Sequence record: QB031381.1
From: a phage
Length of the DNA stretch: 44,356 bases
Direction: 5' to 3' (one strand)
Shown here one piece after another: positions 2,486 to 44,356 of this stretch (its first letter is position 1; each line of letters begins with the position of its first letter). Made by a program: the position numbers and the translations under genes. The notes under the pieces are model-generated. The model did no database searches. It was given only the letters and a program-made list of their open reading frames with translations, and was not told the DNA's origin.

Positions 2486-3226
2486 ATGTTAACGAAAAAG
2501 GTTAAAAGCGATATCGCCGCGCACGTTGCGGCATGTCTGCCGGAAGAAGCCTGTGGGCTGGTTGTCATGGTGGGCCGCAAACAAGTATTTGTCCCGTGCC
2601 CGAACGTATTCGAAGACCCTACCGGCGTGCGCTCACGCAAAGACGCGTTCACGATTAGTGATATGGCCTGGATGGATGCGGAGGATATGGGCGACGTCGT
2701 GCGCGTAGTCCACTCGCATCCAGGCCAGCGAGAGCTTACCCCATCACTGGGCGACGTTAACGGATGCAACGGCAGCGGCGTAGTCTGGGCCATCACTAAC
2801 GAATATGGCGACTTTATCGAGATCGACCCTGAAGATCCTCCGCTGGTGGGGCGTCGATTTGTTCTCGGAATTACGGATTGTTACGGCCTCGTCATGGACT
2901 GGCACAAAAAGCAGGGAGTAAGCCTGCCTGACTTCCGCGTGCCGTATAACTGGTGGGAGACAGGCGAGAATCTGTATATGGATAATTGGTACGGCGCGGG
3001 CTTCAGGGAGTGTGAGGAAAATACGCCGGGGGCGATGGTTATCATGCAGATCAGCGCGCCAGTACCTAACCATGCCGGGATATTCCTTCCGGGCAACCAA
3101 CTACTCCACCATATCTACGGCAGCCTGTCGAGCGTGATACCCTTCCGGTCGGGATTTTTCCGGGACAATGTGGTTAAATGGGTACGTCATAAAGACCTAC
3201 CGGGGAATATAACAGAATGGCAATGA
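2486..3226 (+). CDS. Tail assembly protein K-like (MPN/JAB plus NlpC/P60-type)
   Basis: HSHP metal-binding motif with an upstream Glu (EEACG...VVHSHPG), then a C-terminal Cys/His segment (ITDCYG...DWH). Sits in the gpK position. Confidence 0.65.
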   Translation: MLTKKVKSDIAAHVAACLPEEACGLVVMVGRKQVFVPCPNVFEDPTGVRSRKDAFTISDMAWMDAEDMGDVVRVVHSHPGQRELTPSLGDVNGCNGSGVVWAITNEYGDFIEIDPEDPPLVGRRFVLGITDCYGLVMDWHKKQGVSLPDFRVPYNWWETGENLYMDNWYGAGFRECEENTPGAMVIMQISAPVPNHAGIFLPGNQLLHHIYGSLSSVIPFRSGFFRDNVVKWVRHKDLPGNITEWQ

Positions 3227-7279: not shown

Positions 7280-7945
7280 TCAGTCATATTTAGTGGCATC
7301 TATCACAAGTATGGATGGCGAGTAATAAATGCCAAGCGGCCCCGGTGTGTGGGCTACTTGCTTAGATATCGAATAAATACTTGTCCCGGATGCGCCGGAT
7401 TGTGACTCGTAGATCGCGTGCCCGCCAATCTGAGGGGTGGGAACCGAGTTTATTGCCGTTTGTTGTGGTGATACAGCACATGTATACCCCAAATTAACAT
7501 CAAAAGACAGACCGTTTATCGGTATTTGGTGGGCCTCCAACGGCAACATTTTCCCGTGGTACACCATATCACCCGCAGAATTATAGAATGCGATCCCGTA
7601 GTCCCCCGGCGGTGTAACCATATCACTAAAAGCATAAACCTTAATCCATCCGGGGTTGTCGGTCTTGTCTAGCCGGAGAGCATGATAACCCCCGTTATTT
7701 ATGTGAGTGAATGCGGAGTACGCGCGCCCGCCCATCCTCACAAAGAAAAAGCACACGCGATCGAATGGTATTGGCGTTGTAAAAACAGAACCGCTATATA
7801 CACCCATATCACCGCGACTTATTAAATTAACAGGCGTAAATTCCGGGCTTAACCAAAGGGACCCATCTGGCTTTACAATCTGCATTCCGTACATGCTACC
7901 CCCAATACGTATATATAAATCTTGATACCCCAGCGTTAAAGCCAC
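7280..7945 (-). CDS. Hypothetical protein (GTG start; Gly/Tyr/Ser-rich)
   Basis: 221-aa ORF; the in-frame start at 7945 is GTG and overlaps the upstream ORF by 50 nt. Possibly the 3' part of a frameshifted gene. Confidence 0.4.
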   Translation of the reverse strand: MALTLGYQDLYIRIGGSMYGMQIVKPDGSLWLSPEFTPVNLISRGDMGVYSGSVFTTPIPFDRVCFFFVRMGGRAYSAFTHINNGGYHALRLDKTDNPGWIKVYAFSDMVTPPGDYGIAFYNSAGDMVYHGKMLPLEAHQIPINGLSFDVNLGYTCAVSPQQTAINSVPTPQIGGHAIYESQSGASGTSIYSISKQVAHTPGPLGIYYSPSILVIDATKYD

Positions 7946-8189
7946 TCCATGAAACAGTGTTATCGCTTACGGATATTGATGGCGCACCCCATGATGTGCC
8001 GCTCCATGTATGAGTCCCTACATATCCCGCCTTTAAACTTTTCCCCGGCGGCCGGTTGTAGTATGTCTTACTCCCGGATGGTTGCGTGAATTTGTCAAGG
8101 AAAAAAACCGGCGTTAGCAGGCCGGTAACATCTCGGCCTTGTCCGTCATAAATCGCGAACCCGTAGTTACTCACTTTTACACTCCACAA
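7896..8189 (-). CDS. Hypothetical protein
   Basis: 97-aa ORF overlapping the stop of the lipoprotein gene and the start of 7280..7945. Confidence 0.35.
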   Translation of the reverse strand: MWSVKVSNYGFAIYDGQGRDVTGLLTPVFFLDKFTQPSGSKTYYNRPPGKSLKAGYVGTHTWSGTSWGAPSISVSDNTVSWSGFNAGVSRFIYTYWG

Positions 8190-8436
8190 TTTTGAATTTA
8201 TCTTCGTTTTGCCATCTATGAACGAAAGTTACAAATTTCTGTGACGGGGATACCCGGTATTGTTTTTCTCCAAATCTATTTTCACGCACAGCGTTTAGTT
8301 TAACAGGATAGCTATCGTTTACAGGGAATGTTTTAACAACATATTGGCCTACGCAATCGACAGCCTTGTAGTTGCCGTCTTGTGACGCTGAGCAACCCGC
8401 CAAAAGAACCGCACAAATCATAATTAAGGTTTTCAT
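8167..8436 (-). CDS. Small lipoprotein (candidate Cor/Llp-like superinfection exclusion protein)
   Basis: N-terminal signal peptide with lipobox LLAGC (MKTLIMICAVLLAGCSAS), 89 aa. Encoded antisense between the J-like gene and the tail fibre gene. Confidence 0.55.
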   Translation of the reverse strand: MKTLIMICAVLLAGCSASQDGNYKAVDCVGQYVVKTFPVNDSYPVKLNAVRENRFGEKQYRVSPSQKFVTFVHRWQNEDKFKIVECKSE

Positions 8437-8515
8437 GGTATCATCTCCTATATTTGGTTGAGTTTAGTATTACACCGCTCGACCAGGATTGCAACCAATT
8501 TATGAGGATTCAGCT

Positions 8516-11586: not shown

Positions 11587-11616
11587 ACTATAGTGCAACC
11601 AACCTATTGGTTGCAA
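11587..11616 (-). promoter_or_regulatory. Sigma70-like promoter overlapping a perfect inverted repeat
   Basis: Minus-strand reading: TTGCAA-N18-TATAGT. The spacer and -35 contain TGCAACCAA-CCTA-TTGGTTGCA (11594..11615). Confidence 0.45.
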
Positions 11617-12074: not shown

Positions 12075-12295
12075 TTTAAACTCTCAATAAGGGTGTAACG
12101 GGCGCTTCGCGCAGTAAAGGAGTTGCACACGAAATGGCAACGCTGAGTCATGACAAGCCAACCGGTGAGGTCAAGGCCCAGGATGTATTCGGGGCGAGAC
12201 GCGCGCACTACCCGATTGCGTCGCGGATCAATACAGTAGTCTCTTTGCATTTGGTCTACGACCGCGGGGTCGCGGTCAACGATTAAGATATTCAA
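12071..12295 (-). CDS. Hypothetical protein
   Basis: 74-aa ORF with start and stop overlapping flanking genes. Confidence 0.35.
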   Translation of the reverse strand: MNILIVDRDPAVVDQMQRDYCIDPRRNRVVRASRPEYILGLDLTGWLVMTQRCHFVCNSFTARSARYTLIESLK

Positions 12296-12761
12296 GGAGT
12301 TCTCCTTCGCTCATTATTTCAATTTGTGCGCTGCCGATGGGTGGCGCTTCGCCAAAGATTATCAATTGCTGGCACTTGTTATTGCTCGGCCCGACTTCAC
12401 CGGTGACGGCATGTATAAATCGGATCCGCCAGTCCAGAAGAATTATCAGGTTTGCAGTCTTCCGGGCCAACCGCGCCCACTTTGTCGACGTGTCCTGATT
12501 CAGTAGCATGACGGTCCGGCGTCCGTGCGCTGCGCACTTAACCCACGGCAGCGGATCGGAATACGGCGGGTTGCACCACTTCCACCCTTTCAACTCTGAC
12601 CAGTCCACATCGAGCGCGCTGTGCTCCGCCGTGAAGTAACGCGGTAGCAGGTGGTTGGCATCGCTCGCCGCCATGTCATAACGGAATCGGTACTTCCGGC
12701 GCAGCGGTTTAAATAAAGCTGGCGGCGTGCGCCAGCTATCTTTTTGCTCACTCTTCTTCAT
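12276..12761 (-). CDS. DNA N6-adenine methyltransferase (phage Dam-like)
   Basis: N-terminal WRTPP motif and NPPY catalytic motif (WCNPPYS) typical of small phage N6-adenine methyltransferases. Confidence 0.65.
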   Translation of the reverse strand: MKKSEQKDSWRTPPALFKPLRRKYRFRYDMAASDANHLLPRYFTAEHSALDVDWSELKGWKWCNPPYSDPLPWVKCAAHGRRTVMLLNQDTSTKWARLARKTANLIILLDWRIRFIHAVTGEVGPSNNKCQQLIIFGEAPPIGSAQIEIMSEGELLEYLNR

Positions 12762-13212: not shown

Positions 13213-13455
13213 TTATTTAATCTCCGTAGTGCGAATCTCTTTGCGTGGGATAAATTTGCCGTCCATCTCCACCCAACAGACTCCGTATCGCCATTGGGTG
13301 TTACGACCTGTTTGCTCGGCGTACACGGTCTTGCATCCGTAGCGTTCCGTGTAGTAAATAGCTGCGGTAGGTACGCAAACACAAACGGCAATCATGAGGG
13401 TGAGTATCACCCAAAATCTAAGGTCGCCGTCGTAGTCGAAAAATAATGATGTCAT
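13213..13455 (-). CDS. Small membrane protein
   Basis: Internal ATG with GGAGA RBS. One strong TM helix (FWVILTLMIAVCVCVPTAAIYY). The longer listed ORF overlaps the upstream promoter. Confidence 0.45.
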   Translation of the reverse strand: MTSLFFDYDGDLRFWVILTLMIAVCVCVPTAAIYYTERYGCKTVYAEQTGRNTQWRYGVCWVEMDGKFIPRKEIRTTEIK

Positions 13456-13501
13456 CGTTATGTCTCCAGGTATTAAAAAGGGCGTCCAACCGGACACCCT
13501 C

Positions 13502-13530
13502 AATATAATGCAACCAATATGCTTATGCAA
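13502..13530 (-). promoter_or_regulatory. Sigma70-like promoter with tandem ATTGGTTGCAT motifs
   Basis: Minus-strand reading: TTGCAT-N17-TATATT; two GCAACCAA copies at 13510..13517 and 13527..13534. Confidence 0.5.
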
Positions 13531-13535
13531 CCAAT

Positions 13536-13859: not shown

Positions 13860-14551
13860 TTTAAATTTTCCTCGTTAACCGCTATCGCGAAGCCGCGCGG
13901 GGTGAGTGAGCGGATTAATTTTGTACGAGCGGATTTACCACCGAGGCGACTATACTGTTTCGAGTACCCTTTTTCAACGAAAACAGGTTTCTTCGCGGGC
14001 ATACGAAAGCCGTTGCCGGTCCATAAGCAGGTCAGCTTCGGATATGAATCGCGGGCGTTGATGTATTCAGGGAATAACGGGTGTACGTCATCCTCTGGCA
14101 AATAGCCGCCATACTCCCACGGGTCAAACGAGTGGTCCGGCTTACGCCATTGAGTGGAGAGCACGCTGCGCGGATTCTCAATCATATACGGCACTTCGAA
14201 GAAATCACCCAGGTAAGCGGCTATCTTCGCGGTGCGCACTGCCTTAAGCTGGAAGGCAGGGTCGCGGGCGCGTTTGCGCGGGAAAGCTGGCGCACCGCTA
14301 ACCGCCAGATCCGTACACGGCGGGAATGCGTAAATGATATCCGGCGTGCCGAAATCACCATTCATCGCGCGGTCCACGAAGTCCAGATCGATAAACTCAT
14401 TACGATATCGGATACCGCGCCCATAGATCCGGTAATCAAGGTAAGACCCGTGATCGGCTTCGGAGTAGTTGAAGCAATAACACTTATGCCCCATCTCGGC
14501 AGCACGCTCAATCATCAAGCCGCTGCCGTCAAATAATGACCATATAATCAC
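13856..14551 (-). CDS. DNA cytosine-C5 methyltransferase-like protein
   Basis: FxGxG-like motif (LFDGSG), PPC motif with catalytic-type Cys (FPPCTDLAVSG) and ENP motif (MIENP). Short at 231 aa for a full methyltransferase. Confidence 0.5.
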   Translation of the reverse strand: MIIWSLFDGSGLMIERAAEMGHKCYCFNYSEADHGSYLDYRIYGRGIRYRNEFIDLDFVDRAMNGDFGTPDIIYAFPPCTDLAVSGAPAFPRKRARDPAFQLKAVRTAKIAAYLGDFFEVPYMIENPRSVLSTQWRKPDHSFDPWEYGGYLPEDDVHPLFPEYINARDSYPKLTCLWTGNGFRMPAKKPVFVEKGYSKQYSRLGGKSARTKLIRSLTPRGFAIAVNEENLK

Positions 14552-16443: not shown

Positions 16444-16472
16444 ACTATACCGCTACGCGACCAATTCAGCAA
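16444..16472 (-). promoter_or_regulatory. Sigma70-like promoter (TTGCTG-N17-TATAGT) carrying the ATTGGTTGC motif
   Basis: Minus-strand reading ATTGGTTGCTG...TATAGT; lies within the 3' end of the VRR-NUC gene. Confidence 0.4.
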
Positions 16473-16731
16473 CCAATAAATCACAGTCGGCTATGTTGTC
16501 GATGACGCGAACGTCCGCACCGCGGCGGGCCATTCGCTCATGTTCTCGTACCTGGTGCGGCTTCGGTTTGCCACCGGGGCGCTTCACTTCGACGAAAACT
16601 ATCTTGCCGTTGATGATGATAATCAGATCGGGCGCACCTGCGCGCCCCTCCCAAGCCACTTTGCGGCAGAATCCGCCGACGGCTTTCACCAGCTTCATAA
16701 GGTGACTTTGAATCTTGCCTTCTGGTGTCAT
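16453..16731 (-). CDS. VRR-NUC domain nuclease
   Basis: GAPDLIII...VEVK pattern (PD-(D/E)xK core) in a 92-aa protein; start overlaps the polymerase stop. Confidence 0.6.
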   Translation of the reverse strand: MTPEGKIQSHLMKLVKAVGGFCRKVAWEGRAGAPDLIIIINGKIVFVEVKRPGGKPKPHQVREHERMARRGADVRVIDNIADCDLLVAELVA

Positions 16732-20026: not shown

Positions 20027-20091
20027 TTTCCAATTCCTCATTCTCGCATGTATCGGGGTTATTATGAGCCACCCCGTTCGGCTTGGTTGCT

Positions 20092-20121
20092 AATCTACTT
20101 GGTTGCGCCTGGGTGGTCAAG
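20092..20121 (-). promoter_or_regulatory. Candidate promoter (TTGACC-N18-TAGATT) with two TTGGTTGC copies
   Basis: Motif copies at 20083..20090 and 20099..20106 upstream of the SSB-like gene. Confidence 0.3.
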
Positions 20122-22982: not shown

Positions 22983-23012
22983 ATAATAGATTGGTTGCAG
23001 GATAGGTGTCAA
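22983..23012 (-). promoter_or_regulatory. Candidate leftward promoter (TTGACA-N18-TATTAT)
   Basis: Minus-strand reading; the spacer contains a TTGGTTGC copy (22991..22998). Confidence 0.4.
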
Positions 23013-23022
23013 CAACTAATTT

Positions 23023-23057
23023 AAAAAAAAAGCGCCGAGGCAAAATGCAACGGCGCT
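23023..23057 (-). terminator. Orphan intrinsic-terminator-like hairpin in the divergent control region
   Basis: Minus-strand AGCGCCG-loop-CGGCGCT followed by nine U; lies between the leftward and rightward promoters. Confidence 0.4.
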
Positions 23058-23127
23058 AACCAATAAGAGACAATGAGACGGGAGTATTATTACACGCGTG
23101 CGCGCCCGTTTCAATATTCCAAAGGAG

Positions 23128-23156
23128 TTGACACCCCGCGGTTTTAGGTGTAGTTT
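23128..23156 (+). promoter_or_regulatory. Candidate rightward promoter (TTGACA-N17-TAGTTT)
   Basis: Consensus -35 hexamer 55 nt upstream of the ATG at 23188. Confidence 0.45.
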
Positions 23157-23187
23157 CGTTGGTCATTAACCAACCGGAGACAGAACA

Positions 23188-23517
23188 ATGAATATCGACG
23201 ACGCAATCGAAATGTTAACTAAGACTGTTTGCAGTGAGACAAGCCGGTCCTGGGCATATACCGATGCCGTGGGTGCGGTGCTATTTGAAATCGAACGTCT
23301 GCGACTTACCGAAAAAGAATTGCGCGCGAAGCTGGAATTACTCAACGGTACGGCAGCAAGCAAGCTGCAAAAGCACAATGAGGAAATGGAAGAATACAAA
23401 AAACAGGTTATCCGTTTGCGCGATGAGGGGAAGTCATGGGCAATGATCGCTGAGTTGACAGGAATTAACCAAAGCACCGTGCGCTCCTGGGTACGCAATA
23501 ACAAAACTTCTAAGTAA
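23188..23517 (+). CDS. Small DNA-binding protein with C-terminal HTH
   Basis: C-terminal helix-turn-helix-like segment (KSWAMIAELTGINQSTVRSWV); first gene of the rightward operon. Confidence 0.5.
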   Translation: MNIDDAIEMLTKTVCSETSRSWAYTDAVGAVLFEIERLRLTEKELRAKLELLNGTAASKLQKHNEEMEEYKKQVIRLRDEGKSWAMIAELTGINQSTVRSWVRNNKTSK

Positions 23518-23527
23518 GGCCACGGCA

Positions 23528-25792
23528 ATGAGCTTAATTAAATTCGCTGTAACACGACCCGCTAAAAAAGGCGAAAAAGCCAGGGCGGAAAACTTCCAGA
23601 TGACAACTGATGAATTTTTCGAATTTATCAATGACGCGAAAGAAATCTCATCGGTGCACATCAACAAGACCGAGGATAAAGCCGAGTATGCGCGCCGCAA
23701 GCGCAAGGCCGATGGCATCGTGGCATATACCAGTGACGGCCTACGCCGTAAGACCAGCGCGGTGGACCGCTCGATCCTGTTCTTTGATATTGACCGCACC
23801 GATACTCGCACCTTGCGCCGCTGCCGTAAGGCTTTCATCGACGCGGGTCTGGAACACGTATTCCACACCACAACCGGCGACCGTCACCCACTGAAAGGCG
23901 GCACGCGTTGCGCCCGTTTCCTGGTGTTGACGGACAAGCCTGTCCCGGCGGAAGACCTGGGCCGTGTCCAGTATGCGCTATTACACCAACTTGGTCTGTC
24001 AGATGTGGACTTCGACGATTGCACGAAAGACACAAACCGCCTGATGTACCTGCCGCACCAGCAATCGGTTATTAAGTGCCGCTACGGCAAACGTGCCAAT
24101 GTGCGGCGTCTGCTCCGCCTGGCGGACAAGCTGGGGGTGGAGAAAGAGGAAGTACGCCGCGAACTAACCCAGGGCGACGACGAAGTGGCTGACGGCATTC
24201 TTGATTGGTGCTTCCAGGCTGGATTCGAGCCACTATCGTCCGGGCGTGGCTATGAAGTGCCGTGTCCGAACGAACATCTGCACAGCGGCGAAGGGTCGAC
24301 GGCTATCATGGTCAAGGATGGCGAGATCCGTTTCAAGTGTATGCACACCGGAAACGAGTGTTGCTCGGAACTGAACCGACACCAGCACCTGGCGCTTCGT
24401 CTTATCGGGATCCCGGACCACCTGAACGTCGAGCCACACAATATGTCCCGTAAGCAAATCGCCGCCATCCTGCCAGGTCTGGACGACGAGGAAGTCGAAT
24501 CCTTATATGATCACATTGTTGATGCGGTTGGCGACGGCGAAGAATATGGCGTGTGCACCGATGCGGATCTGGATAACGAGCCGGTTGCGCTGTTCAGTAA
24601 GCACGACCCGATCATCGAAGGTCTGATTAACTTCAAATCGACCTGGTATATGGCGGGCGAGTCGAACATCGGCAAGTCCTTCTATGTGCTGGGGCAGATG
24701 GGCGCGGTTGCCGCGGGTATCCCGTTTGGCGGTGCGAAGGTCGTCCAGTCTCATTGCTTCTATTTCGACGCGGAAGGCGGCGAAGCCTCCAACCAGCGCA
24801 AAGAAGCATTGCAGATTAAATACGAGCACGACCTGGATAAGCTGCACATTATCGATCTGCAATCACGCGGCTGGGATATCACCAGCAAATCAGGCTTGCG
24901 CGAAGTTATCAGCTATATCAACCGCACCGCTAACGGCGAGCCGGTCGGCCTGGTGGCGTTCGACTCACTCAACCAGACTGTTGCGTTGCGGTCCGCCGAT
25001 GCTAAACCGTTCGACGAGAACAACGCCAGCGATATGGGTGAAGTGGTCAAAGCGCTGAAAGCCATCGCGGAAAATACAGGCGGCAGTGCGGGCGTCATCC
25101 ACCACCCGGCGAAAGGGGCAAACGGCAGCAGAACGCCACGCGGGTCCGGCGCGCTGCATGGTGCTGTCGATTCTGCTTTCTTCCTGGAACAGCCGGACGA
25201 CAACCAGCCCGGACAATTGAACCTGTACCACGAAAAATCACGTAACGGCATCAAGCAAGCGCCGCGTGGCTTCGTCCTGCTCAAGTGCAAAGTTAAGGTT
25301 GATCTCCGCAAGTCTGAGGCATTCGCGTCGCACCAGTCCACCAGCACCGGGCCAGACTTCGGGGATGTGGTTGCCGGTTGGGACGTCAAGCCAATTGCAT
25401 CCACGCCACGCGACGAGACTCTCTACCTCGTACCGGTCGCCCTGGCACCGTTCGCTATAGAACAAGCGAAGGCCGCAGGAAAAGCCGCAGTTAAGGAAGA
25501 AAACGCCGCCGGTCCGCGCACCGAAAAAGAGAAAGTGCTTTATGCGGCCCTGGAAAAACTGATGGAAGATAACCCGGACCATACTGGTTTCAGTAAATCG
25601 GCAATCGTCCGCCAGGCGGGACTCGCTAAGGGTGGCACTTCGACGAAGGCAATCGACGATATGGTCGAGCGCGGCGTGATTGGTTTCTATACAGATCCGC
25701 ACACCGGGGCCATATATGGGTCGTCGAATTTAGTCATCAAATCGGATATCCCCATCACGCTTTCGGCGACCGATGATGACCTGAAAGATTAA
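23528..25792 (+). CDS. Primase-helicase (AEP-type primase/polymerase N-terminal domain plus P-loop NTPase domain)
   Basis: DxD motif (ILFFDIDRTD), Cys/His zinc-binding region (CPNEHLH...CMHTGNECC), Walker A (GESNIGKS) and a RecA-like segment; 754 aa. Confidence 0.7.
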   Translation: MSLIKFAVTRPAKKGEKARAENFQMTTDEFFEFINDAKEISSVHINKTEDKAEYARRKRKADGIVAYTSDGLRRKTSAVDRSILFFDIDRTDTRTLRRCRKAFIDAGLEHVFHTTTGDRHPLKGGTRCARFLVLTDKPVPAEDLGRVQYALLHQLGLSDVDFDDCTKDTNRLMYLPHQQSVIKCRYGKRANVRRLLRLADKLGVEKEEVRRELTQGDDEVADGILDWCFQAGFEPLSSGRGYEVPCPNEHLHSGEGSTAIMVKDGEIRFKCMHTGNECCSELNRHQHLALRLIGIPDHLNVEPHNMSRKQIAAILPGLDDEEVESLYDHIVDAVGDGEEYGVCTDADLDNEPVALFSKHDPIIEGLINFKSTWYMAGESNIGKSFYVLGQMGAVAAGIPFGGAKVVQSHCFYFDAEGGEASNQRKEALQIKYEHDLDKLHIIDLQSRGWDITSKSGLREVISYINRTANGEPVGLVAFDSLNQTVALRSADAKPFDENNASDMGEVVKALKAIAENTGGSAGVIHHPAKGANGSRTPRGSGALHGAVDSAFFLEQPDDNQPGQLNLYHEKSRNGIKQAPRGFVLLKCKVKVDLRKSEAFASHQSTSTGPDFGDVVAGWDVKPIASTPRDETLYLVPVALAPFAIEQAKAAGKAAVKEENAAGPRTEKEKVLYAALEKLMEDNPDHTGFSKSAIVRQAGLAKGGTSTKAIDDMVERGVIGFYTDPHTGAIYGSSNLVIKSDIPITLSATDDDLKD

Positions 25793-25897
25793 TTTTTGCG
25801 CGCATTGGTTGCCATTTTGAGTGTTTTTAGCTGGTAGCATTGGTTGCCGTGTAGTGTGAATATAGTGCATAGTTATGCAATAAAACTGCATAAAGTA

Positions 25898-26000
25898 AGC
25901 GGGACAAAAAGCGGGACAGACCAGGGGCGGGACAAAGCGGGACAGCACCCCGTCCCACCCCCGGATGACGCGGCCTGGAGGGGAGCGGGACAGGCGGGAC
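25898..26000 (+). repeat. Iteron array: six direct GCGGGACA repeats
   Basis: Copies at 25898, 25910, 25926, 25936, 25984 and 25993 (start positions), plus an imperfect GGGACAG-cacccc-GTCCC dyad. Confidence 0.8.
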
Positions 26001-26005
26001 AAACC

Positions 26006-26054
26006 CCAGTCTTTCAGACTAGACGGGGGTCAACGGCCCCCCTCGTCTGAGACT
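26006..26054. repeat. 49-bp GC-rich imperfect palindrome (copy A)
   Basis: cagtctttcagactagacgggggtcaacggcccccctcgtctgagactg; also present at 42659..42707 with one substitution. Confidence 0.8.
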
Positions 26055-26214
26055 GCATAAAATCCTGGATTGCAAAATACACGGCAGCATGTTGCGGATT
26101 GCGGTCGTCACTGAACTAGGCAACCAATGCGAGTTGCTGAATGGTGGGCGGAAAATGCAGTTTGCAGTCACAGCAGATAGCGATCAACTTTTTCATGCGC
26201 GTGATTAATATTGG

Positions 26215-26243
26215 TTGCATCCACCCCAGCACCCTGCTATATT
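26215..26243 (+). promoter_or_regulatory. Sigma70-like promoter (TTGCAT-N17-TATATT) flanked by two ATTGGTTGCA copies
   Basis: The -35 lies inside ATTGGTTGCAT (26209..26220); a second copy starts right after the -10 (TATATTGGTTGCACACCAA); 28 nt upstream of the ATG at 26271. Confidence 0.5.
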
Positions 26244-26270
26244 GGTTGCACACCAATAGGAGGGCGGAAC

Positions 26271-26761: not shown

Positions 26762-27031
26762 ATGGTCCGCAGACGAGCTAAACAGCTTTCGTGGCATATT
26801 CCGCTGCATTGCATACGCATATGGGCTAAGAATGCGACTGAGGGCGATTCTGTGTTCTGGAGCTATCGCGACGATGTGAAGCCGTTGACGCAGACACGCT
26901 ACTTGCACCAGTTCGCAGCAAAACACGATTTCAGGGTGCGGACTTCCTTGCAACCAATGGGAATCCGTATTACATTACGCCGGAAGCCCGCCGTTGAGCG
27001 GGTAGGCAAACACTGGAGACTGAGCAAATGA
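26762..27031 (+). CDS. Hypothetical basic protein
   Basis: 89-aa ORF, Arg/Lys-rich. Confidence 0.35.
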   Translation: MVRRRAKQLSWHIPLHCIRIWAKNATEGDSVFWSYRDDVKPLTQTRYLHQFAAKHDFRVRTSLQPMGIRITLRRKPAVERVGKHWRLSK

Positions 27032-28050: not shown

Positions 28051-28085
28051 AGTCCCAGTGAGATAAAACTTACTGGGACTTTTTT
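28051..28085 (+). terminator. Rho-independent terminator immediately upstream of the lysis cassette
   Basis: AGTCCCAGT-loop-ACTGGGACT hairpin followed by TTTTTT. Confidence 0.5.
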
Positions 28086-29286: not shown

Positions 29287-29313
29287 AAGCCCGGTATTAT
29301 CCGGGCTTTTTAT
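29287..29313 (+). terminator. Rho-independent terminator
   Basis: AAGCCCGG-TATTAT-CCGGGCTT hairpin followed by TTTTATT. Confidence 0.6.
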
Positions 29314-29372
29314 TGCCCGCCTCGATAAGTCCCGTGATATATTGTCCCCGGTCCCATAATCAGGAAGTAATT

Positions 29373-30515
29373 ATGCACCCGCAAACTAAAATCACAGACG
29401 AGCAATTGATTGCTGAATTACAATCCGGCGCTACATCGAAAGAGATTTCTAAGAAGTACGGTTTGTCCCTCCGAAACGTCTACATGCGGAAAGCCCGCCT
29501 ATCGAAAAAAGGAATTGGTCACGGCAACGACGCCGTAATCCGCCAGCGCGTTGCCGATGGCTTCGGCGTTAAGCGCGTATCGGCCCTGGTGCGCGGCAAT
29601 GGCGAAGAGGTCATGTCGTGGGTCATCACTGAGCAGGATAAGGAGCGCCAACTCGAAGCCATGCGCGCTGTTGTCGAGGGTATGAACAGCGAAATCACAC
29701 CGGCAGCGCCAGTAAACGCCCCATGCCAGTATACCCAGGCGCTTGACTTGCTCAACCTGTACACCGTGTCCGACTTCCACCTGGGCATGTTGGCGTGGGG
29801 CGAGGAGACTGGCGAAGACTGGGATATGGCGATCGCCGAAGACCTGTTCTACCGCTGGTTTGTCGAAGCCTTCGCACGCGCACCAGACGCAGGCACTGCC
29901 GTGATCAATATCCTCGGCGATATGGCGCACTTTGATAGCCTCGACGCCGTCACTCCCGCCAGCGGTCACGTACTGGACGCCGACACCCGATACCAGAAGT
30001 TGGTCCGCTATATGATTCGCATGGTGCGCAACGTCGTCGAACTGGCGCTGCAAAAACACCACAAAGTCAAACTGCTAATCGTCCAGGGGAATCATGATGA
30101 GTCGGGTATGATCTGGCTGGCTGAGATGTTCAATACTCTGTACGAGAACGAGCCGCGCGTCGATGTGGATACGTCCCCGGACGTTTACAAAATGGTGCAG
30201 CACGGAAAGACCACGCTATTCTTCCACCACGGGCACAAAGCGCGATTCGATGTTATCGAGCAGGTTATGATCGCTAAATTCAGACAGGCGTTCGGGGCGA
30301 GCGAATACAGCTACGCGCACGTAGGCCATTTGCACCACCAGAAGATTGTTGAATCCCGCAACATGATTGTTGAACAGCACAGGACGCTCGCAGCGAAAGA
30401 CGCCTACGCCAGTCGTGGCGGTTGGATGTCAGGTCGCAGCGCCAACGTCATTACCTACAGCGCCAACTACGGCGAAGTAGCGCGCTTAACCATTAGCCCG
30501 GAAATGTTGAAGTAA
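29373..30515 (+). CDS. Calcineurin-like metallophosphoesterase with N-terminal HTH
   Basis: ATG with AGGAAG RBS. HTH-like N-terminus (TSKEISKKYGLSLRNVYMRKARL), then DFHLG, GDMAHFD, GNHDE, HHGH and GHLHH motifs. Confidence 0.55.
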   Translation: MHPQTKITDEQLIAELQSGATSKEISKKYGLSLRNVYMRKARLSKKGIGHGNDAVIRQRVADGFGVKRVSALVRGNGEEVMSWVITEQDKERQLEAMRAVVEGMNSEITPAAPVNAPCQYTQALDLLNLYTVSDFHLGMLAWGEETGEDWDMAIAEDLFYRWFVEAFARAPDAGTAVINILGDMAHFDSLDAVTPASGHVLDADTRYQKLVRYMIRMVRNVVELALQKHHKVKLLIVQGNHDESGMIWLAEMFNTLYENEPRVDVDTSPDVYKMVQHGKTTLFFHHGHKARFDVIEQVMIAKFRQAFGASEYSYAHVGHLHHQKIVESRNMIVEQHRTLAAKDAYASRGGWMSGRSANVITYSANYGEVARLTISPEMLK

Positions 30516-30645
30516 CGGCAACCCGTACCCCTCCCAGCCTGCCGATTTGGTGGGCTTTTTTGTGCCTGTTATAATCCCCCTTAGATGGCAGGGCCGTCTC
30601 CTATGTTGCCGATGGTCGGCGCATATGAACAAAAGGGTTTATATC

Positions 30646-35648: not shown

Positions 35649-36413
35649 TTAGCGCGGAATACCGCAAATCTCGTTGAGAGTTTTCACGTCCAGCGCCACC
35701 GCCGTGGATTTTTGCTTGTCCTGGTATGGTATGAATTGCTCAACTTCAGGCCATGCCTTAATCAGCTTCTTGTCAGTATTGTGCAGGTCCAGCACACCGG
35801 TAACGGTGAGTTTGAACGCGTCATACTTCGCACGCAACTCGCGACGTGCCTTGTCGTTGCGGTCCATGCGCTTACAGAAGTCATGGTCCGCCGGGTAGTC
35901 TACGCGACCGCGTGGGAGATATATCGGCAGCGCTTTCCCTTCCTCGTCCACTTCGCACACTGACGCGAGCATAACTGTCTCGAACCCCGGAACGATATCG
36001 CCGAGATCAGGCGAGAGCTTATTCATATATTTCTCTTCCCAGTATCCGCGATGTACGCGGTATTGGCGACCGTCGCCGCTCAAGGACAAGGTGCGAACAT
36101 TGCCGCCTGCGTTGATTTCAAAGGTGGCATCGTAAACGCTGCCGATACCCTTCGGGCGGTCGGTGTTATAACTATACGTCGCCTTGTTGGTGTATACGCT
36201 GACGCCGTACATCTGCGACTGGTCATCGCGGATTGCCTTGATATGCTCGCGGAGCGCTGCGAACGTGCGAATGCCTTCCGGCATACAGTCCAGCGTGATT
36301 GCGTACGCCAGATCGCGTGAGTCCATCATGATTTGTTTGGCTTCGGTAGCGATTTCGTGGTCGCGCAGGATGTTAGCTAGGATCTGATTTTTAATGTCTT
36401 TCGTCAGTCTCAT
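35649..36413 (-). CDS. Hypothetical protein (antisense moron gene 1)
   Basis: 254-aa ORF with GAGGA RBS, opposite in orientation to all flanking structural genes; no recognisable motifs. Confidence 0.5.
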   Translation of the reverse strand: MRLTKDIKNQILANILRDHEIATEAKQIMMDSRDLAYAITLDCMPEGIRTFAALREHIKAIRDDQSQMYGVSVYTNKATYSYNTDRPKGIGSVYDATFEINAGGNVRTLSLSGDGRQYRVHRGYWEEKYMNKLSPDLGDIVPGFETVMLASVCEVDEEGKALPIYLPRGRVDYPADHDFCKRMDRNDKARRELRAKYDAFKLTVTGVLDLHNTDKKLIKAWPEVEQFIPYQDKQKSTAVALDVKTLNEICGIPR

Positions 36414-36452
36414 TTTTATGTCCTCATTTTATGGGCTTTCGCCCCGATTGGT

Positions 36453-36767
36453 TTAGTTGAATTTGATGTTACCACCGGTGGAAGTTAAGCGGGCACATAC
36501 AGCTTCAACGGCATCGACGCACATGAAATCGTTAAAGGCTTCGACCAGGGCGTTTATGAAAGATGCCGGAACCAGGCCGCAAGCCGGATTATCGAATGTC
36601 GCGGAGTTGATCGCCGCTTTCGCCGCTTCAGAAGCATTCATGCTCTGGCACAGATTCAGCGCTTCCGCGTTACGCATTGCGTGAAAGGTAAAGGTATTCG
36701 CTACGGTAGCTTTATTGAAACGGGCCATTGCGGCGTCTACTGGAGTTGCTACGGTCATGTTAGTCAT
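36453..36767 (-). CDS. Hypothetical protein (antisense moron gene 2)
   Basis: Internal ATG (MTNMTVATPV) with GAAGGAAG RBS, downstream of a conserved promoter; 104 aa. Confidence 0.45.
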   Translation of the reverse strand: MTNMTVATPVDAAMARFNKATVANTFTFHAMRNAEALNLCQSMNASEAAKAAINSATFDNPACGLVPASFINALVEAFNDFMCVDAVEAVCARLTSTGGNIKFN

Positions 36768-36802
36768 TTTGTCTTCCTTCATATCTCTGTTGGTGTGCAA
36801 CC

Positions 36803-36832
36803 AATATAATGCGACCAACGTCTGCAATGCAA
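36803..36832 (-). promoter_or_regulatory. Sigma70-like promoter (TTGCAT-N18-TATATT) followed by GGTTGCACACCAA
   Basis: Minus-strand sequence TATATTGGTTGCACACCAA is identical to the 19-mer at promoter 26238..26256. Confidence 0.5.
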
Positions 36833-41675: not shown

Positions 41676-41698
41676 GGGGCCAGTACGGCCCCTTTTTT
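41676..41698 (+). terminator. Intrinsic terminator/attenuator after major tail gene
   Basis: GGGGCC-AGTA-CGGCCCC hairpin followed by TTTTTT. Confidence 0.5.
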
Positions 41699-42395: not shown

Positions 42396-42653
42396 GCGGG
42401 ACAGGCGGGACGTCCCGTTTTGTCCCGCCACCATTAAACCGCATATATACTCACTTTCATTGCATAAACTAAAAGCGGGACAGGGGTGCTGTCCCAATCT
42501 GTCCCGCCCCTTAAAAGTGAATAGCTATTCTGTTTTCCTGCATAAAACAAACGGGACAGAAAGCGGGACAGAATGAGGCGGGACAAAGCGGGACAGCACC
42601 CCTGTCCCCGTCAGTGCTGCCGCGGGTTTTAGCCGATCGGGACAGGCGGGACA
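42396..42653. repeat. Iteron array: about 12 (G)CGGGACA repeats in both orientations, with GGGACAG-N6-CTGTCCC dyads
   Basis: Copies at 42396, 42405, 42421 (rc), 42475, 42500 (rc), 42552, 42563, 42578, 42588, 42638 and 42646; dyads at 42477..42495 and 42589..42607. Confidence 0.8.
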
Positions 42654-42658
42654 AATCC

Positions 42659-42707
42659 CAGTCTTTCAGACTAGACGGGGGTCAATGGCCCCCCTCGTCT
42701 GAGACTG
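42659..42707. repeat. 49-bp GC-rich imperfect palindrome (copy B)
   Basis: cagtctttcagactagacgggggtcaatggcccccctcgtctgagactg; one substitution relative to copy A. Confidence 0.8.
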
Positions 42708-42775: not shown

Positions 42776-44356
42776 ATGGCAGATCAGGCTGCGGGCATCA
42801 CGCTCAAGGCGGACGTCGCGCAAATTAAAACGGCCAATACTGTGCTGGACACATTTGCGCAGAAATCCGAGAACACAGAACAGAAAGTAAAGAAATTAAA
42901 CGACACACTCGGCAAGTCGAAAAAGGTCACTGGTGACGCCGCGGGCGGAATGGAAAAGTTAGCGACTGAATCGCAGCGCGCCGCCGACGGCATGACGAAA
43001 CAGGAGCGACTCGCCAGCCGATTAGGCATGTCGACCAAAAACCTGGGATTCGCATCGCGGAACGCCGCATTCCAGTTACAGGATATCGCGGTGACGCTTG
43101 AAATGGGTATGCCGGTGCATCGAGTCATGCTTCAGCAGTTACCACAGCTTACTGGGGCGTTTGGCGGGTTGGGGAATACGCTGCGTTATGTCGTCGGCAC
43201 ACTCGGCCCGTTAGGGATCGGCATCGCGGCATTAACGGCAACGATGGGCGTTGGCGTGTCGATTATGTCCCGCGCGGAAAACCAAGTGGCGGCGCTTAAC
43301 AAGACGCTGGCGCTGTCCGGTAATATCTCTGGCCTCACCGCTAACCAGATCCTGGTGCTATCCGAGAACGCCGAGCGGATGGGCGGATCATTCCGCAAGA
43401 CGCGTGACACAATTCAGTCACTGGCGGCGGCTGGTGTGAAAGCGGGTGCGGACTTCGGCGCACTGGCGAAAGTGGTGAATGACTTCTCTAAGGTGTCCAG
43501 CCAGCCGATCGAAGAAGTTGTCGCGGCGGTAGCGAAGCTGTCAACCGACCCGGTAGGCGGCTTGCGCGCACTGGCGGATAAGTATCACGTCGTAAACGAA
43601 GCGCAGATCCAGCAGGTGCAGTCTCTTGTTGATATGGGTCGCGAGACAGACGCAGTTGCGTTGGCTAACAAAACCGCCGCCGCGTCGTTTACCACTATGA
43701 CCAACGATATCAAGGCGAACATGGGCACGCTTGAGCGGTCTATGAACGTCGTCACATCGGCAGCTAAATCTATGTGGGACGCTATCCTGGATGTGGGCCG
43801 CGCGCAGTCCTCCAATGAGTCGGAGATGAAAGCGCGCGAATCACTCCAGCGCATGACAACGGCTTACTATGCCGAGATGAAAGCGGTAAACGCTGCCGGT
43901 GGGGTGATGACCGAAGCGCAGAAAGCTCGTATTAACATGCTTTACAGCGAACTGGTCGCCCAGGAGAAAGTAGTGGCGTCGCTTACCCTTCGTAACCGTG
44001 CGGAGCGAGACAACGCCCGCGCCGCAGACGAATCCGCAAAGGCGAACGAGGAGGCCAACCTCACAGCCCGCGACCGCGCTGCGTTCGAGAAGGAGTACGC
44101 AACCAATGCGAAGAAGCGCGCAGACGAGATCGCCCGCCTCAATTTGCTGAATAAGCGCGGCGTTATTGACGAGAAAGAGCTTGCTGAGGCGGTTAAGCAG
44201 GTAAACGAGCGTTACAAAGACCCGGCCCCGAAGAAGGCCGCGGCTGTTCGCGTGGATGCCGGTATGAAAATGCTGGAAGTCGCACGGAGCGAACTGGCCC
44301 AGCTTCGAGAATCCGGCAAGCAGATCGAAGCCAACGCATCGACGCAGACCCGCACG
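42776..44356 (+). CDS. Tail tape measure protein, N-terminal portion (3' partial; runs off the window end)
   Basis: ATG with AGGGGGA RBS; 527 codons without a stop to the window end; hydrophobic segment and long coiled-coil typical of tape measure proteins; absent from the ORF track because it has no stop. Confidence 0.75.
   Translation, partial: MADQAAGITLKADVAQIKTANTVLDTFAQKSENTEQKVKKLNDTLGKSKKVTGDAAGGMEKLATESQRAADGMTKQERLASRLGMSTKNLGFASRNAAFQLQDIAVTLEMGMPVHRVMLQQLPQLTGAFGGLGNTLRYVVGTLGPLGIGIAALTATMGVGVSIMSRAENQVAALNKTLALSGNISGLTANQILVLSENAERMGGSFRKTRDTIQSLAAAGVKAGADFGALAKVVNDFSKVSSQPIEEVVAAVAKLSTDPVGGLRALADKYHVVNEAQIQQVQSLVDMGRETDAVALANKTAAASFTTMTNDIKANMGTLERSMNVVTSAAKSMWDAILDVGRAQSSNESEMKARESLQRMTTAYYAEMKAVNAAGGVMTEAQKARINMLYSELVAQEKVVASLTLRNRAERDNARAADESAKANEEANLTARDRAAFEKEYATNAKKRADEIARLNLLNKRGVIDEKELAEAVKQVNERYKDPAPKKAAAVRVDAGMKMLEVARSELAQLRESGKQIEANASTQTRT

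What the first reader, a model, noticed from the sequence alone, without database searches (positions are those of the whole stretch)
26206..26256. Phage-specific ATTGGTTGCA motif recurring at promoters across the genome
The core 8-mer TTGGTTGC (or its complement GCAACCAA) occurs at least 16 times: 8491, 11595, 11607, 13510, 13527, 16469, 20083, 20099, 22991, 25805, 25840, 26120, 26211, 26243, 26950 and 36797. About 1.4 copies are expected by chance on both strands. Almost all are intergenic and overlap sigma70-like promoter elements. Two promoters share the identical 19-mer TATATTGGTTGCACACCAA (26238..26256 and 36803..36821 on the minus strand). At 11594..11615 two copies form a perfect 9-bp-arm inverted repeat. 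This looks like an operator or specialised promoter element for a phage-encoded or co-opted regulator.
Basis: seen in the sequence. Interest (0 to 1): 0.7.

Follow-up and report, generated by a model that had tools for sequence, protein, structure and literature searches.

The report
Conserved 8-mer built into phage promoters
An exact 8-base word, TTGGTTGC, sits inside the core of nearly every early and middle promoter of this E. coli phage and of three other phage lineages, so it is almost certainly a docking site for an unidentified regulator.

Summary
TTGGTTGC occurs 18 times where about 2 are expected. Thirteen copies lie in the 6.5% of the window that is intergenic, and 15 lie in σ70-type promoter regions.

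The window is a Dhillonvirus, a virulent siphophage of the HK578/SO-1 type. Copies occupy a few set positions in the promoter core:
- forward at −39..−32, where TTGCAt serves as the −35 hexamer;
- in either orientation at about −22..−15, next to the −10;
- over the −10 and start site.

Most copies come in pairs. Across up to 19 related genomes the motif columns are 93% invariant, against 68% for the flanks.

The same word, in the same promoter layouts, is enriched in Edwardsiella phage eiAU, Serratia phage Otaku and Klebsiella phage VLCpiS11a. It is absent from three other relatives.

I read it as a protein-binding operator embedded in promoter cores, most likely repressive. The window's only recognisable HTH protein (23188-23517) is the obvious candidate, but the other motif-bearing phages lack it, so a conserved host factor or an unrecognised phage protein is more likely. 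I found no prior description in the literature I could search.

The parts
8466..8500 (-). Promoter of the lipoprotein (superinfection-exclusion-like) gene at 8436..8167. The motif is at 8498..8491, the -35 TTGCAA at 8494..8489, then a 17-bp spacer with TG, and the -10 AATACT at 8471..8466.
   Evidence: Read from the sequence. In 7 genomes the motif and the -10 are invariant while the spacer varies.
11587..11616 (-). Promoter of gp27: -35 TTGCAA at 11616..11611, 18-bp spacer, -10 TATAGT at 11592..11587. It contains the inverted motif pair 11594-11615. The reverse copy is at -34..-27 and the forward copy at -22..-15. The stop codon of gp28 lies in the centre of the palindrome.
   Evidence: The whole palindrome is invariant in 7 genomes.
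13502..13534 (-). Promoter of the 80-aa gene at 13455..13213. Copy 1 (13534..13527) supplies the -35 TTGCAT, followed by a 17-bp spacer. Copy 2 (13517..13510) abuts the -10 TATATT at 13507..13502. A terminator-like hairpin plus T5 follows at 13499..13475.
   Evidence: Both copies are invariant in 10 genomes while the 7 bp between them vary.
16444..16476 (-). Promoter of gp35, a zinc-ribbon protein. The motif is at 16476..16469, the -35 TTGCTG is followed by 17 bp and the -10 TATAGT at 16449..16444. A degenerate second copy, TTGGTCGC, is at 16464..16457. The promoter lies inside the 3' end of gp36.
   Evidence: Conserved in 13 distinct sequences, including the divergent L019.
20083..20120 (-). 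Promoter of the Gp2.5-like SSB/annealing gene: TTGACC at 20120..20115, 17-bp spacer, TAGATT at 20097..20092. Two motif copies lie in reverse orientation, at -21..-14 (20106..20099) and at -5..+3 (20090..20083).
   Evidence: Both copies are invariant in 17 distinct sequences while the other spacer bases vary.
22983..23012 (-). Leftward promoter PL for the gp46 operon: TTGACA-18-TATTAT, 11 of 12 consensus matches. One reverse-orientation motif (22991-22998 on the + strand) lies in the spacer at -22..-15.
   Evidence: The motif is invariant and the rest of the spacer variable in 16 distinct sequences.
23128..23173 (+). Rightward promoter PR for the HTH gene: TTGACA at 23128-23133, 17-bp spacer, TAGTTT at 23151-23156. 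It is followed by the palindrome TTGGTCATTAACCAA at 23159-23173, which looks like two degenerate half-motifs.
   Evidence: Invariant in genomes with the standard HTH gene. Absent in HK578, which has a divergent HTH gene. L019 has a perfect reverse motif at the same place.
23188..23517 (+). A 109-aa protein (SO-1 gp47 homologue) with a long central helix and a C-terminal HTH of the σ region 4 / HTH_23 type. It is the only recognisable DNA-binding protein found in the early region. It is a candidate reader of the motif, but a weakened one.
   Evidence: Pfam and NCBIfam, family alignment, AlphaFold model, fold search. Absent from the other motif-bearing phages.
25802..25873 (+). Left part of region B. 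Two forward copies in an extended repeat GCATTGGTTGCC (25805-25812 and 25840-25847). A possible promoter, TTGCCG-18-CATAGT (25844-25873), points into the GCGGGACA iterons.
   Evidence: Some genomes carry a third copy on a 54-bp insertion.
26120..26127 (-). A lone motif copy in region B with no recognisable -10 element nearby.
   Evidence: A conserved island, GGCAACCAATGC, between variable flanks in 16 distinct sequences.
26211..26256 (+). Promoter of gp49, the first gene after region B. Copy 1 (26211-26218) supplies the -35 TTGCAT, followed by a 17-bp spacer and the -10 TATATT at 26238-26243. Copy 2 (26242-26249) spans -8..-1. The start codon is at 26271.
   Evidence: Both copies are conserved and the spacer is variable in 16 distinct sequences.
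36790..36832 (-). Promoter of the moron cluster (104-aa gene at 36767..36453, then Nmad5): TTGCAT at 36832..36827, 18-bp spacer, TATATT at 36808..36803. A degenerate copy, TTGGTCGC (36818..36811), abuts the -10. A perfect copy (36804..36797) spans -8..-1.
   Evidence: The degenerate copy is a perfect TTGGTTGC in HK578, jat, Kente and CHD5UKE2.
3093..3100 (-). A copy deep inside the tail assembly gene. Probably coincidental or kept by coding constraint.
   Evidence: Present at the orthologous place in HK578 and CHD5UKE2.
26950..26957 (-). A copy inside gp51, antisense to the gene, with no -10 downstream.
   Evidence: Conserved in HK578, CHD5UKE2, L016 and L018.
44099..44106 (-). A copy inside the tape-measure gene. 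Probably chance.
   Evidence: Not seen at the orthologous place in HK578.

Best explanation
(a/g)TTGGTTGC(a) is a cis-regulatory protein-binding site, that is an operator. It is built into the core (about -40 to +5) of the host-σ70-type promoters that drive the early and middle transcription units: replication, recombination, the first genes after the origin-like region, and morons.

Shown:
- The word is about 9-fold over-represented and confined to promoter-bearing gaps.
- It sits at a few preferred registers.
- It usually comes in pairs 12-35 bp apart.
- It is invariant while neighbouring promoter bases drift.

Inferred:
- A sequence-specific factor binds each asymmetric unit of about 10 bp. 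Because the sites cover the -35, the spacer next to the -10, or the -10 and start site, in either orientation, binding would exclude RNA polymerase. That would switch these units off, or gate them, together.
- Where the element is forward at -39..-32, its TTGCAt part also serves as the -35 hexamer.

The factor is not identified. The window's own HTH protein (23188-23517) is the only recognisable candidate. However, the motif is shared with phages that carry an unrelated Cro-type protein in that slot.
For: - Enrichment: 18 copies against about 2 expected. Thirteen of 18 lie in 6.5% intergenic DNA.
- All motif-bearing gaps lie at 8.4-26.3 kb, plus one at 36.8 kb. None is in the structural module.
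- Registers, read from the sequence and scored: forward at -39..-32 in 4 promoters; -22..-14 in 5 promoters in both orientations; -8..-1 in 2; -5..+3 once.
- Twelve of the 15 promoter-associated copies are in pairs.
- Footprint: 112 of 120 motif columns are invariant, against 765 of 1124 flanking columns, in alignments of 5-19 distinct sequences (Fisher P about 2e-10).
- A lone conserved copy has no promoter (26120).
- The same layouts occur in distant phages whose proteins are only about 25-70% identical: eiAU TTGCAT-17-TATAGT with a second copy TATAGTTGGTTGCA; VLCpiS11a TTGCAA-17-TATAGT twice, and a reverse copy in the spacer of the SSB promoter; Otaku TTGACA-17-TATAGT-cat-GCAACCAA.
- RP180, which lacks the motif, has a different conserved palindrome in the same spacer position of its promoters. 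This suggests that promoter-embedded operators are a general habit of this phage group.
Against: - There are no binding, footprinting or transcription-start data.
- No candidate reader fits all the data.
- gp47 is absent from eiAU, Otaku and VLCpiS11a. It is only 48% identical in HK578, which has the same motif set.
- The Cro-type proteins do not track the motif.
- I know of no E. coli factor with this consensus. This rests on memory and was not tested.
- The sign of regulation is inferred from position alone. Sites at -39..-32 could equally activate.
- In 4-6 promoters the element can be explained simply as the -35 region.
Confidence: 0.55

Rival explanations
1. The reader is the phage's own 109-aa coiled-coil/HTH protein (23188-23517). 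It is made first from PR and works as a Cro-like early regulator. Its dimer would place two HTH domains on the paired units, shut down PL and the internal promoters, and autoregulate through the element just downstream of PR.
For: - It is the only HTH found among about 40 early and small proteins scanned.
- The C-terminal 60 aa, which include the HTH, are nearly invariant in 25 family members while the N-terminus is swapped. This matches an invariant multi-copy target.
- The model shows a 55-residue helix followed by an HTH.
- An HTH of the σ4/resolvase/IS630 type fits an asymmetric 10-bp unit.
- PR carries TTGGTCATTAACCAA at about +2 to +16, and a perfect reverse motif in L019.
- In related phages the same slot holds a Cro/CI-type HTH.
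Against: - eiAU, Otaku and VLCpiS11a have the motif in the same promoter layouts but no homologue of this protein.
- HK578 and CHD5UKE2 have a variant only 48% identical, with changes at recognition-helix positions 1, 6 and 9, yet the same sites.
- The HK578 PR lacks the downstream palindrome.
Confidence: 0.15
2. No extra factor is involved. The word is simply the conserved -35 region of these phages' strong host-RNA-polymerase promoters (TTGCAt, as in the TTGCT-type -35 of T5 promoters, recalled from memory). The other copies are relics of promoter duplication.
For: - Four to six copies sit exactly 17±1 bp upstream of TATAnT. Among the motif copies, 17% score as good promoters, against 0.4% of other TTGC sites.
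- Identity of the word across phages of different hosts would follow from a conserved σ70.
- The identical 19-mer at two promoters suggests duplication.
Against: - More than half of the promoter copies are not at -35. They lie in the spacer, over the -10 and start site, or in reverse orientation inside TTGACA-type promoters. These are just as invariant, and the same layouts recur in eiAU, VLCpiS11a, Otaku and L019.
- The invariant TTGG lies upstream of the hexamer that σ70 reads.
- A conserved copy at 26120 has no -10.
- Four copies in Otaku lie in two reading frames inside a gene.
Confidence: 0.15
3. The element is tied to DNA methylation. The phage's Dam-family adenine methyltransferase (12276-12761) would either target adenines on the GCAACCAA strand or set a methylation state that controls these promoters.
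For: It is the only window protein found in all three other motif-bearing lineages (eiAU 45%, Otaku 68%, VLCpiS11a 51% identity) and in none of the three motif-less relatives. Its Pfam family is PF05869.
Against: - The co-occurrence may reflect a single shared ancestry of the early region. Helicase-primase identity is 46-48% to the motif-bearing phages and 43%, 32% and 29% to the motif-less ones.
- Characterised members of this family methylate GATC (from memory), and the motif has no GATC.
- The invariant 8-mer has adenines on one strand only, which is unusual for an orphan methyltransferase.
Confidence: 0.07
4. The word serves DNA transactions rather than transcription. It could be an accessory site of the replication origin, or a short homology that lets promoter-plus-hairpin cassettes recombine and shuffle genes, as proposed for PeSL cassettes of T4-type phages (from memory).
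For: - Clusters lie next to the helicase-primase gene and lineage-specific iterons in Dhillonvirus (5 copies), eiAU (7-9) and Otaku (4, inside the gene).
- Hairpins follow three of the promoters.
- Motif promoters flank variable moron genes, and two of them share a 19-mer.
Against: - The second iteron locus, region A, has no copy.
- Most copies are far from the origin-like region and sit at fixed registers relative to the -10 elements.
- Strand orientation shows no replication-like polarity in the window or in eiAU.
Confidence: 0.06

Closest known systems
Operators of small phage repressors that overlap early promoters (λ Cro/CI at OR and OL; LexA-type boxes)
   Same: Short conserved sites cover the -35, the spacer or the -10 and start site of σ70 promoters. 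There are several sites per promoter. A small HTH gene is the first gene of one early operon.
   Different: The unit is asymmetric, not a dyad. It is used in either orientation with variable spacing. It is spread over about 9 promoters along 28 kb of a virulent phage. The word is identical across lineages whose Cro-slot proteins differ.
T4 MotA box and σ appropriation (AsiA/MotA)
   Same: A phage-specific word replaces a consensus -35 at promoters that have a good -10. A protein related to σ region 4 is encoded nearby.
   Different: MotA boxes have one register (centred at -30) and one orientation. Here there are at least four registers and both orientations. No MotA or AsiA homologue was detected.
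B. subtilis GerE and phage φ29 p4 (small regulators that repress some promoters and activate others according to site position)
   Same: Asymmetric or loosely symmetric sites lie either over the -35 or near the start site, in either orientation, giving position-dependent outcomes.
   Different: No homology was shown.
λ CII sites (TTGC-N6-TTGC straddling the -35)
   Same: A TTGC-containing repeat overlaps the -35 of promoters with a non-consensus -35.
   Different: Here TTGG and TTGC are 4 bp apart within a single 8-mer. Sites also lie in the spacer and at the start site. No CII homologue was found.
Phage-specific conserved promoter words found by repeat mining (PHIRE-type analyses), and the SO-1 GenBank annotation of 'region A/B' repeats
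   Same: The same kind of finding: a lineage-specific word recurring in intergenic regions. The SO-1 record already flags region B as repeat-rich.
   Different: The SO-1 and HK578 records annotate only generic repeats and three σ70 promoters. Neither names this word, its genome-wide spread or its occurrence in other genera.

Membership tests
σ70-type promoter | A -35-like hexamer and a -10 hexamer (A at position 2, T at position 6) separated by 16-18 bp, upstream of a gene on the same strand | tested here: met
   Nine promoter regions meet this. Examples: TTGCAT-17-TATATT at 13530..13502 and 26215-26243; TTGACA-18-TATTAT at 23012..22983.
σ70-type promoter | A mapped transcription start | not testable with these tools
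   No transcript data are available, and no Dhillonvirus transcriptome was found in the library.
Dyad-symmetric repressor operator (Cro/CI, LexA type) | Two-fold symmetric site bound by a dimer | tested here: not met
   The unit aTTGGTTGCa has no internal dyad. Only one of about 9 promoters has an inverted pair (11594-11615). The other pairs are direct, at spacings of 14, 16, 17, 31 and 35 bp.
Dyad-symmetric repressor operator (Cro/CI, LexA type) | The site co-varies with, or co-occurs with, the cognate regulator gene | tested here: not met
   The motif is present with gp47 (Dhillonvirus) and with Cro-type proteins (eiAU, Otaku, VLCpiS11a). It is absent from VSiA and SE-W109, which have homologous Cro-type proteins.
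T4 MotA-box middle promoter | A single register (centred near -30) and a single orientation relative to the -10 | tested here: not met
   The registers are -39..-32, -34..-27, -22..-14, -8..-1 and -5..+3, in both orientations.
Replication-origin iteron | Tandem array confined to the origin region(s) and shared by the paired iteron loci | tested here: not met
   Thirteen of the 18 copies lie outside region B and none lies in region A. GCGGGACA fills that role: 6 copies in region B and 8 in region A.
GntR/FadR-type operator (PdhR-like TTGGT-N3-ACCAA, recalled from memory) | Inverted TTGGT/ACCAA arms separated by 3 bp | tested here: not met
   Only three sites have a second arm, and there the gap is 5 bp: 26242 and 36797 (both TTGGTTGCACACCAA) and 23159 (TTGGTCATTAACCAA). 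The rest have no second arm.
σ54 promoter (-24 GG / -12 TTGCA, recalled from memory) | GG and GC 12 bp apart | tested here: not met
   Within the word, GG and GC are 4 bp apart. Between paired copies the offsets are 13-16 bp or more (sequence).
Q-type antiterminator binding element | A site at a single late promoter, followed by a σ-dependent pause element and a terminator | tested here: inconclusive
   Sites occur at about 9 promoters, not one. No -10-like pause element follows them. However, terminators lie just after one promoter (13499..13475) and inside the late operon with no room for a promoter (28051-28080).
Mobile promoter/stem-loop cassette (PeSL-like) | A conserved promoter plus hairpin flanking variable genes | tested here: inconclusive
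   Hairpins follow 3 promoters. Motif promoters head the variable lipoprotein and moron genes. Recombination junctions were not analysed.

The most novel reading that the evidence does not exclude
The word is read by a factor conserved across Enterobacterales hosts, or its readout depends on the phage's Dam-family methyltransferase. In that case four lineages of virulent siphophages (Dhillonvirus, Eiauvirus, and the Otaku-like and VLCpiS11a-like Guernseyvirinae) would share one host-coupled switch that gates all their early and middle promoters and the sites flanking the origin-like region. This switch would be independent of the lineage-specific Cro-slot regulators.
Probability: 0.2. Interest if true: 0.7.

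Novelty: new member of a known kind. Interest (0 to 1): 0.5.

Why it matters
Dhillonviruses are widely used. They appear in the BASEL collection, as SECphi18 in defence studies, and as therapy candidates, yet their transcription programme is uncharted. This word marks, at single-base resolution, about nine promoters and the units they drive. It predicts that one factor controls them together.

Because the word is shared by phages of E. coli, Edwardsiella, Serratia and Klebsiella that differ in their own early regulators, finding its reader would reveal one of two things. It would be either a host protein that these phages depend on, or a hidden, conserved phage regulator. The sites are also practical handles for engineering, either as promoters to keep or as operators to remove.

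Tried and rejected
This was my leading idea until. I built the family alignment, a model and a fold search. I demoted it when eiAU, Otaku and VLCpiS11a proved to carry the motif without the protein.
- **Cro-type proteins of the other phages.** They are homologous between motif-bearing and motif-less phages, and their recognition helices differ.
- **Helicase-primase C-terminal domain.** It looks like a winged helix, but it is no closer between the window and Otaku than between the window and the motif-less VSiA (26-28% against 26-34%).
- **The 380-aa 'transcriptional regulator' of some records.** It is a metallophosphatase.
- **Known host sites**, compared from memory only: DnaA box, IHF, OmpR, CytR, NtrC, PdhR/GntR, σ54. 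None fits the invariant positions.
- **Literature.** Searches for the word itself return only primers. Dhillonvirus papers do not mention it.
- **Collection scans for paired copies.** Scans of viral contigs and genome contigs returned noise from unrelated taxa and tandem repeats.
- **Rfam.** No match in the window.
- **Solved structures.** A sequence search found no homologue of gp47.
- **Antisense-promoter reading of the reverse copies.** No acceptable -10 follows them.

Full report
**1.

TTGGTTGC/GCAACCAA occurs 18 times in the 44,356-bp window. Dinucleotide-preserving shuffles give a mean of 1.99 and a maximum of 8. The second copy of the 19-mer TATATTGGTTGCACACCAA is at 36790-36808(-), not 36803-36821.

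I transferred a gene map from an annotated relative. On that map, 13 copies lie in the 6.5% of the window that is intergenic (P about 2e-12). Two more lie in the last codons of a gene, inside the next promoter.

One-mismatch variants are hardly enriched (39 against about 31). The consensus with flanks is a-TTGGTTGC-a. A 50-kb sample of E. coli K-12 has 2 copies, both in coding sequence.

**2. Context.**

The window is a Dhillonvirus, 90-95% identical in DNA to many E. coli phages of the HK578/SO-1/SSL-2009a type. Its layout is as follows:
- A leftward replication and recombination operon runs from 22966 down to 10367.
- A rightward operon runs from 23188: a small HTH protein, helicase-primase, the repeat-rich 'region B' (25793-26270), small genes, lysis genes, a metallophosphatase, terminase, and head and tail genes.
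- There are two small leftward islands of accessory genes (7280-8436 and 35649-36767).

All motif-bearing gaps lie at 8.4-26.3 kb, plus one at 36.8 kb. None of the gaps in the structural module has a copy.

**3. Anatomy.**

I read each site on its transcribed strand. Every intergenic copy except 26120 lies in a σ70-type promoter. I number positions from the -10 hexamer, taking its first base as -12.
- The element lies forward at -39..-32 in four promoters: 8498, 13534, 16476 and 26211. There its TTGC(A/T)N is the -35 hexamer, 17 bp from TATATT, TATAGT or TGnAATACT.
- It lies at -22..-14, directly against the -10, in five promoters. It is forward at 11602, 13517 and 36818 (the last degenerate in the window but perfect in HK578). 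It is reverse at 20106 and 22998.
- It lies at -8..-1 in two promoters (26242 and 36804, as TATATTGGTTGCA).
- It lies at -5..+3 once (20090, reverse).

The two promoters with a canonical -35, TTGACA-18-TATTAT (PL) and TTGACC-17-TAGATT (SSB gene), carry only reverse copies. Twelve of the 15 promoter-associated copies are in pairs 12-35 bp apart.

Scoring each copy as a would-be -35 shows that 17% have a good -10 at the right distance, against 0.4% of other TTGC sites. The remaining copies do not, so they are not antisense or tandem promoters.

**4. Selection.**

I aligned the nine regions from up to 19 distinct related sequences. These came from whole genomes (Kente, AV129, HK578, CHD5UKE2, jat, SO-1) and from IMG/VR loci. 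The motif columns are invariant in 112 of 120 cases, against 765 of 1124 for the flanks.

The pattern is a classical footprint. At 8491, 13510/13527, 20083/20099, 22991 and 26211/26242 the word is fixed while the spacer bases beside it change. The lone copy at 26120 is a conserved island between variable flanks with no -10. This argues for binding as such.

**5. Who reads it? First candidate: gp47.**

Pfam, PHROG and NCBIfam scans of about 40 early and small proteins find one DNA-binding fold. It is the 109-aa product of 23188-23517, with matches to HTH_23, Sigma70_r4_2, HTH_28 and ECF σ region 4.
- Its last 60 residues are nearly invariant in 25 family members while the first 45 are swapped.
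- The model is a 55-residue helix followed by an HTH (pLDDT 84).
- The fold matches (DeoR, LuxR/GerE, resolvase, IstA HTHs) are weak.
- Its promoter PR is followed by TTGGTCATTAACCAA, and by a perfect reverse copy in the divergent L019.

Taken alone, this makes a tidy Cro-like story.

**6. Comparative data undo that story.**

HK578 and CHD5UKE2 carry a variant only 48% identical in the HTH, yet have the same 19-20 sites.

More importantly, the word is enriched in three other lineages:
- Serratia phage Otaku: 12 copies, about 1.4 expected.
- Edwardsiella phage eiAU: 23 copies, about 2 expected.
- Klebsiella phage VLCpiS11a: 13 copies, about 1.4 expected.

It is absent (0-1 copies) from VSiA, RP180 and SE-W109.

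The promoter layouts recur:
- eiAU has TTGCAT-17-TATAGT with a second copy as TATAGTTGGTTGCA, and another promoter with copies 12 bp apart.
- VLCpiS11a has TTGCAA-17-TATAGT twice, and a reverse copy in the spacer of TTGACA-17-TAACGT before its SSB gene.
- Otaku has TTGACA-17-TATAGT-cat-GCAACCAA.

All three lineages examined for it cluster copies at the end of, or just after, the helicase-primase gene, beside lineage-specific iterons. Dhillonvirus has 5, eiAU has 7-9, and Otaku has 4 inside the gene in two reading frames.

None of these phages has a gp47 homologue. In its slot they have a Cro/CI-type HTH. That protein is homologous to those of the motif-less VSiA and SE-W109, and its recognition helices differ.

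The only window protein present in all motif-bearing lineages and absent from all motif-less ones is the Dam-family methyltransferase (12276-12761). That pattern may reflect a single shared ancestry of the early region.

**7. Mechanism.**

The best-supported reading is that the word is an operator embedded in promoter cores. A sequence-specific factor bound there would block RNA polymerase and gate the early and middle units together. Where the word is forward at -39..-32 it also provides the -35 hexamer.

What is shown is enrichment, register, pairing, conservation and recurrence across lineages.

An identical 8-mer kept across phages whose proteins are only about 25-70% identical, and whose own early regulators differ, points to a very conserved reader. 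That would be a host protein or a phage protein I cannot recognise.

The rivals are:
- gp47 after all (0.15);
- a plain σ70 promoter word (0.15), which cannot explain the reverse, spacer and start-site copies or the invariant TTGG;
- a link to methylation (0.07);
- origin or recombination functions (0.06), which fit poorly because the second iteron locus has no copy.

**8. Comparison with known systems, and novelty.**

It works most like repressor operators that overlap early promoters, or like position-dependent regulators such as GerE or φ29 p4. It fails the defining tests of several families:
- dyad operators, because the unit is asymmetric;
- MotA boxes, because there are many registers and both orientations;
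- CII sites, σ54 promoters and PdhR-type operators, because the spacing is wrong;
- iterons, because it is not in region A.

RP180 has a different conserved palindrome, GAATAGTnnnCTATTATAGT, in the spacer of its promoters. Promoter-embedded operators therefore seem to be a habit of this phage group.

GenBank records note only generic repeats and three promoters. I found no paper describing the word. I rate it a new member of a known kind, of moderate interest.

Noticed in passing
window 25899-26001 and 42396-42653 (hairpins at about 26008-26055 and 42659-42707): GCGGGACA occurs 18 times where about 2 are expected. Six copies lie in region B, just after the helicase-primase gene, and 8 lie in both orientations in region A, before the tape-measure gene. 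The two regions also share a hairpin of about 48 bp and ACTGCATAA repeats. They look like two iteron loci 16.5 kb apart, reminiscent of P4 ori/crr. The divergent C-terminal winged-helix-like part of the helicase-primase is a plausible reader.
   Followed up: partly
window 23015-23114 (- strand): Between PL and PR there is a promoter-like TTGAAA-17-AATAAT with TG (23114..23086) and a hairpin plus T9 terminator (23058..23015). Together they would give a leftward RNA of about 65 nt. The stretch is invariant in 16 distinct sequences. It contains TTATTGGTTAGC, which is the motif with one inserted base.
   Followed up: partly
window 13475-13507 (- strand): A GC-rich hairpin plus T5 starts 3 nt after the -10 of the promoter at 13534..13502. 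The expected start (about 13495) lies inside the 5' arm. Read-through from upstream would therefore terminate, while promoter-initiated RNA would lack the full stem. This would be a compact terminator-promoter insulator.
   Followed up: no
window 28051-28080, 29287-29308, 30536-30556, 41676-41692 (+ strand): Strong intrinsic terminators lie inside the rightward late operon. The first ends 6 nt before the holin start codon, leaving no room for a promoter. Late genes therefore seem to need read-through or antitermination. No consensus σ70 promoter was found in the late region.
   Followed up: no
window 29314-29372; L016 13606-13629, L018 10139, L019 13151, HK578 (L020) 42100, CHD5UKE2 (L021) 14254-14277: Other Dhillonviruses carry one or two reverse motif copies just after the gp57 terminator, ahead of the metallophosphatase gene. 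In L016 these form a promoter, TTGACT-18-CATACT. The window has a different sequence there, with no copy.
   Followed up: partly
L025 13091-13212 (Otaku); L151 26868-27633 (eiAU): Otaku has four motif copies in two reading frames within the last 200 bp of its helicase-primase gene, partly on an Otaku-specific insertion and next to CCGCACA iterons. eiAU has 7-9 copies in both orientations just after its helicase-primase gene.
   Followed up: partly
window 23188-23517 and alignment A1: The HTH protein has an invariant C-terminal 60 aa but at least three unrelated N-terminal cassettes across the genus. HK578 and CHD5UKE2 carry a 142-aa variant, and the sequence changes from just after the -35 of PR (the spacer, -10 and leader differ). 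This suggests cassette exchange.
   Followed up: partly
window 29373-30515: This gene is annotated in several records as a 'transcriptional regulator'. It matches calcineurin-like metallophosphatases (Metallophos and Metallophos_2) and has no DNA-binding domain.
   Followed up: yes
window 35649-36767 (- strand): The moron island here encodes an Nmad5 (nucleotide-modification-associated) protein and a 104-aa protein. SO-1 and AV129 carry a different moron at this place, annotated as β-clamp-like or RusA-like. The motif-bearing promoter is retained in both cases.
   Followed up: partly
L148 (RP180) 28481, 32079, 34778, 6050, 15995: Kagunavirus RP180 lacks TTGGTTGC. Its promoters share a different conserved element in the spacer, TTGACA-N-GAATAGTnnnCTATTATAGT. 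This looks like an analogous operator for a different reader.
   Followed up: no
window 25785-25800 compared with L003, L004, L005, L008, L010, L016, L017: Several Dhillonviruses have a 54-bp insertion in region B. It carries a third GCGCGCATTGGTTGCC copy and the palindrome ATATGGGAATTCCCATAT. The window lacks it.
   Followed up: no
whole window: The 8-mers ACGGCAGC/GCTGCCGT (30 copies), CGCTGCCG (33) and ACGGCAAC (24) are about 10-fold over a second-order expectation. Similar words are frequent in the Guernseyvirinae genomes. The cause, whether codon usage or something else, was not examined.
   Followed up: no
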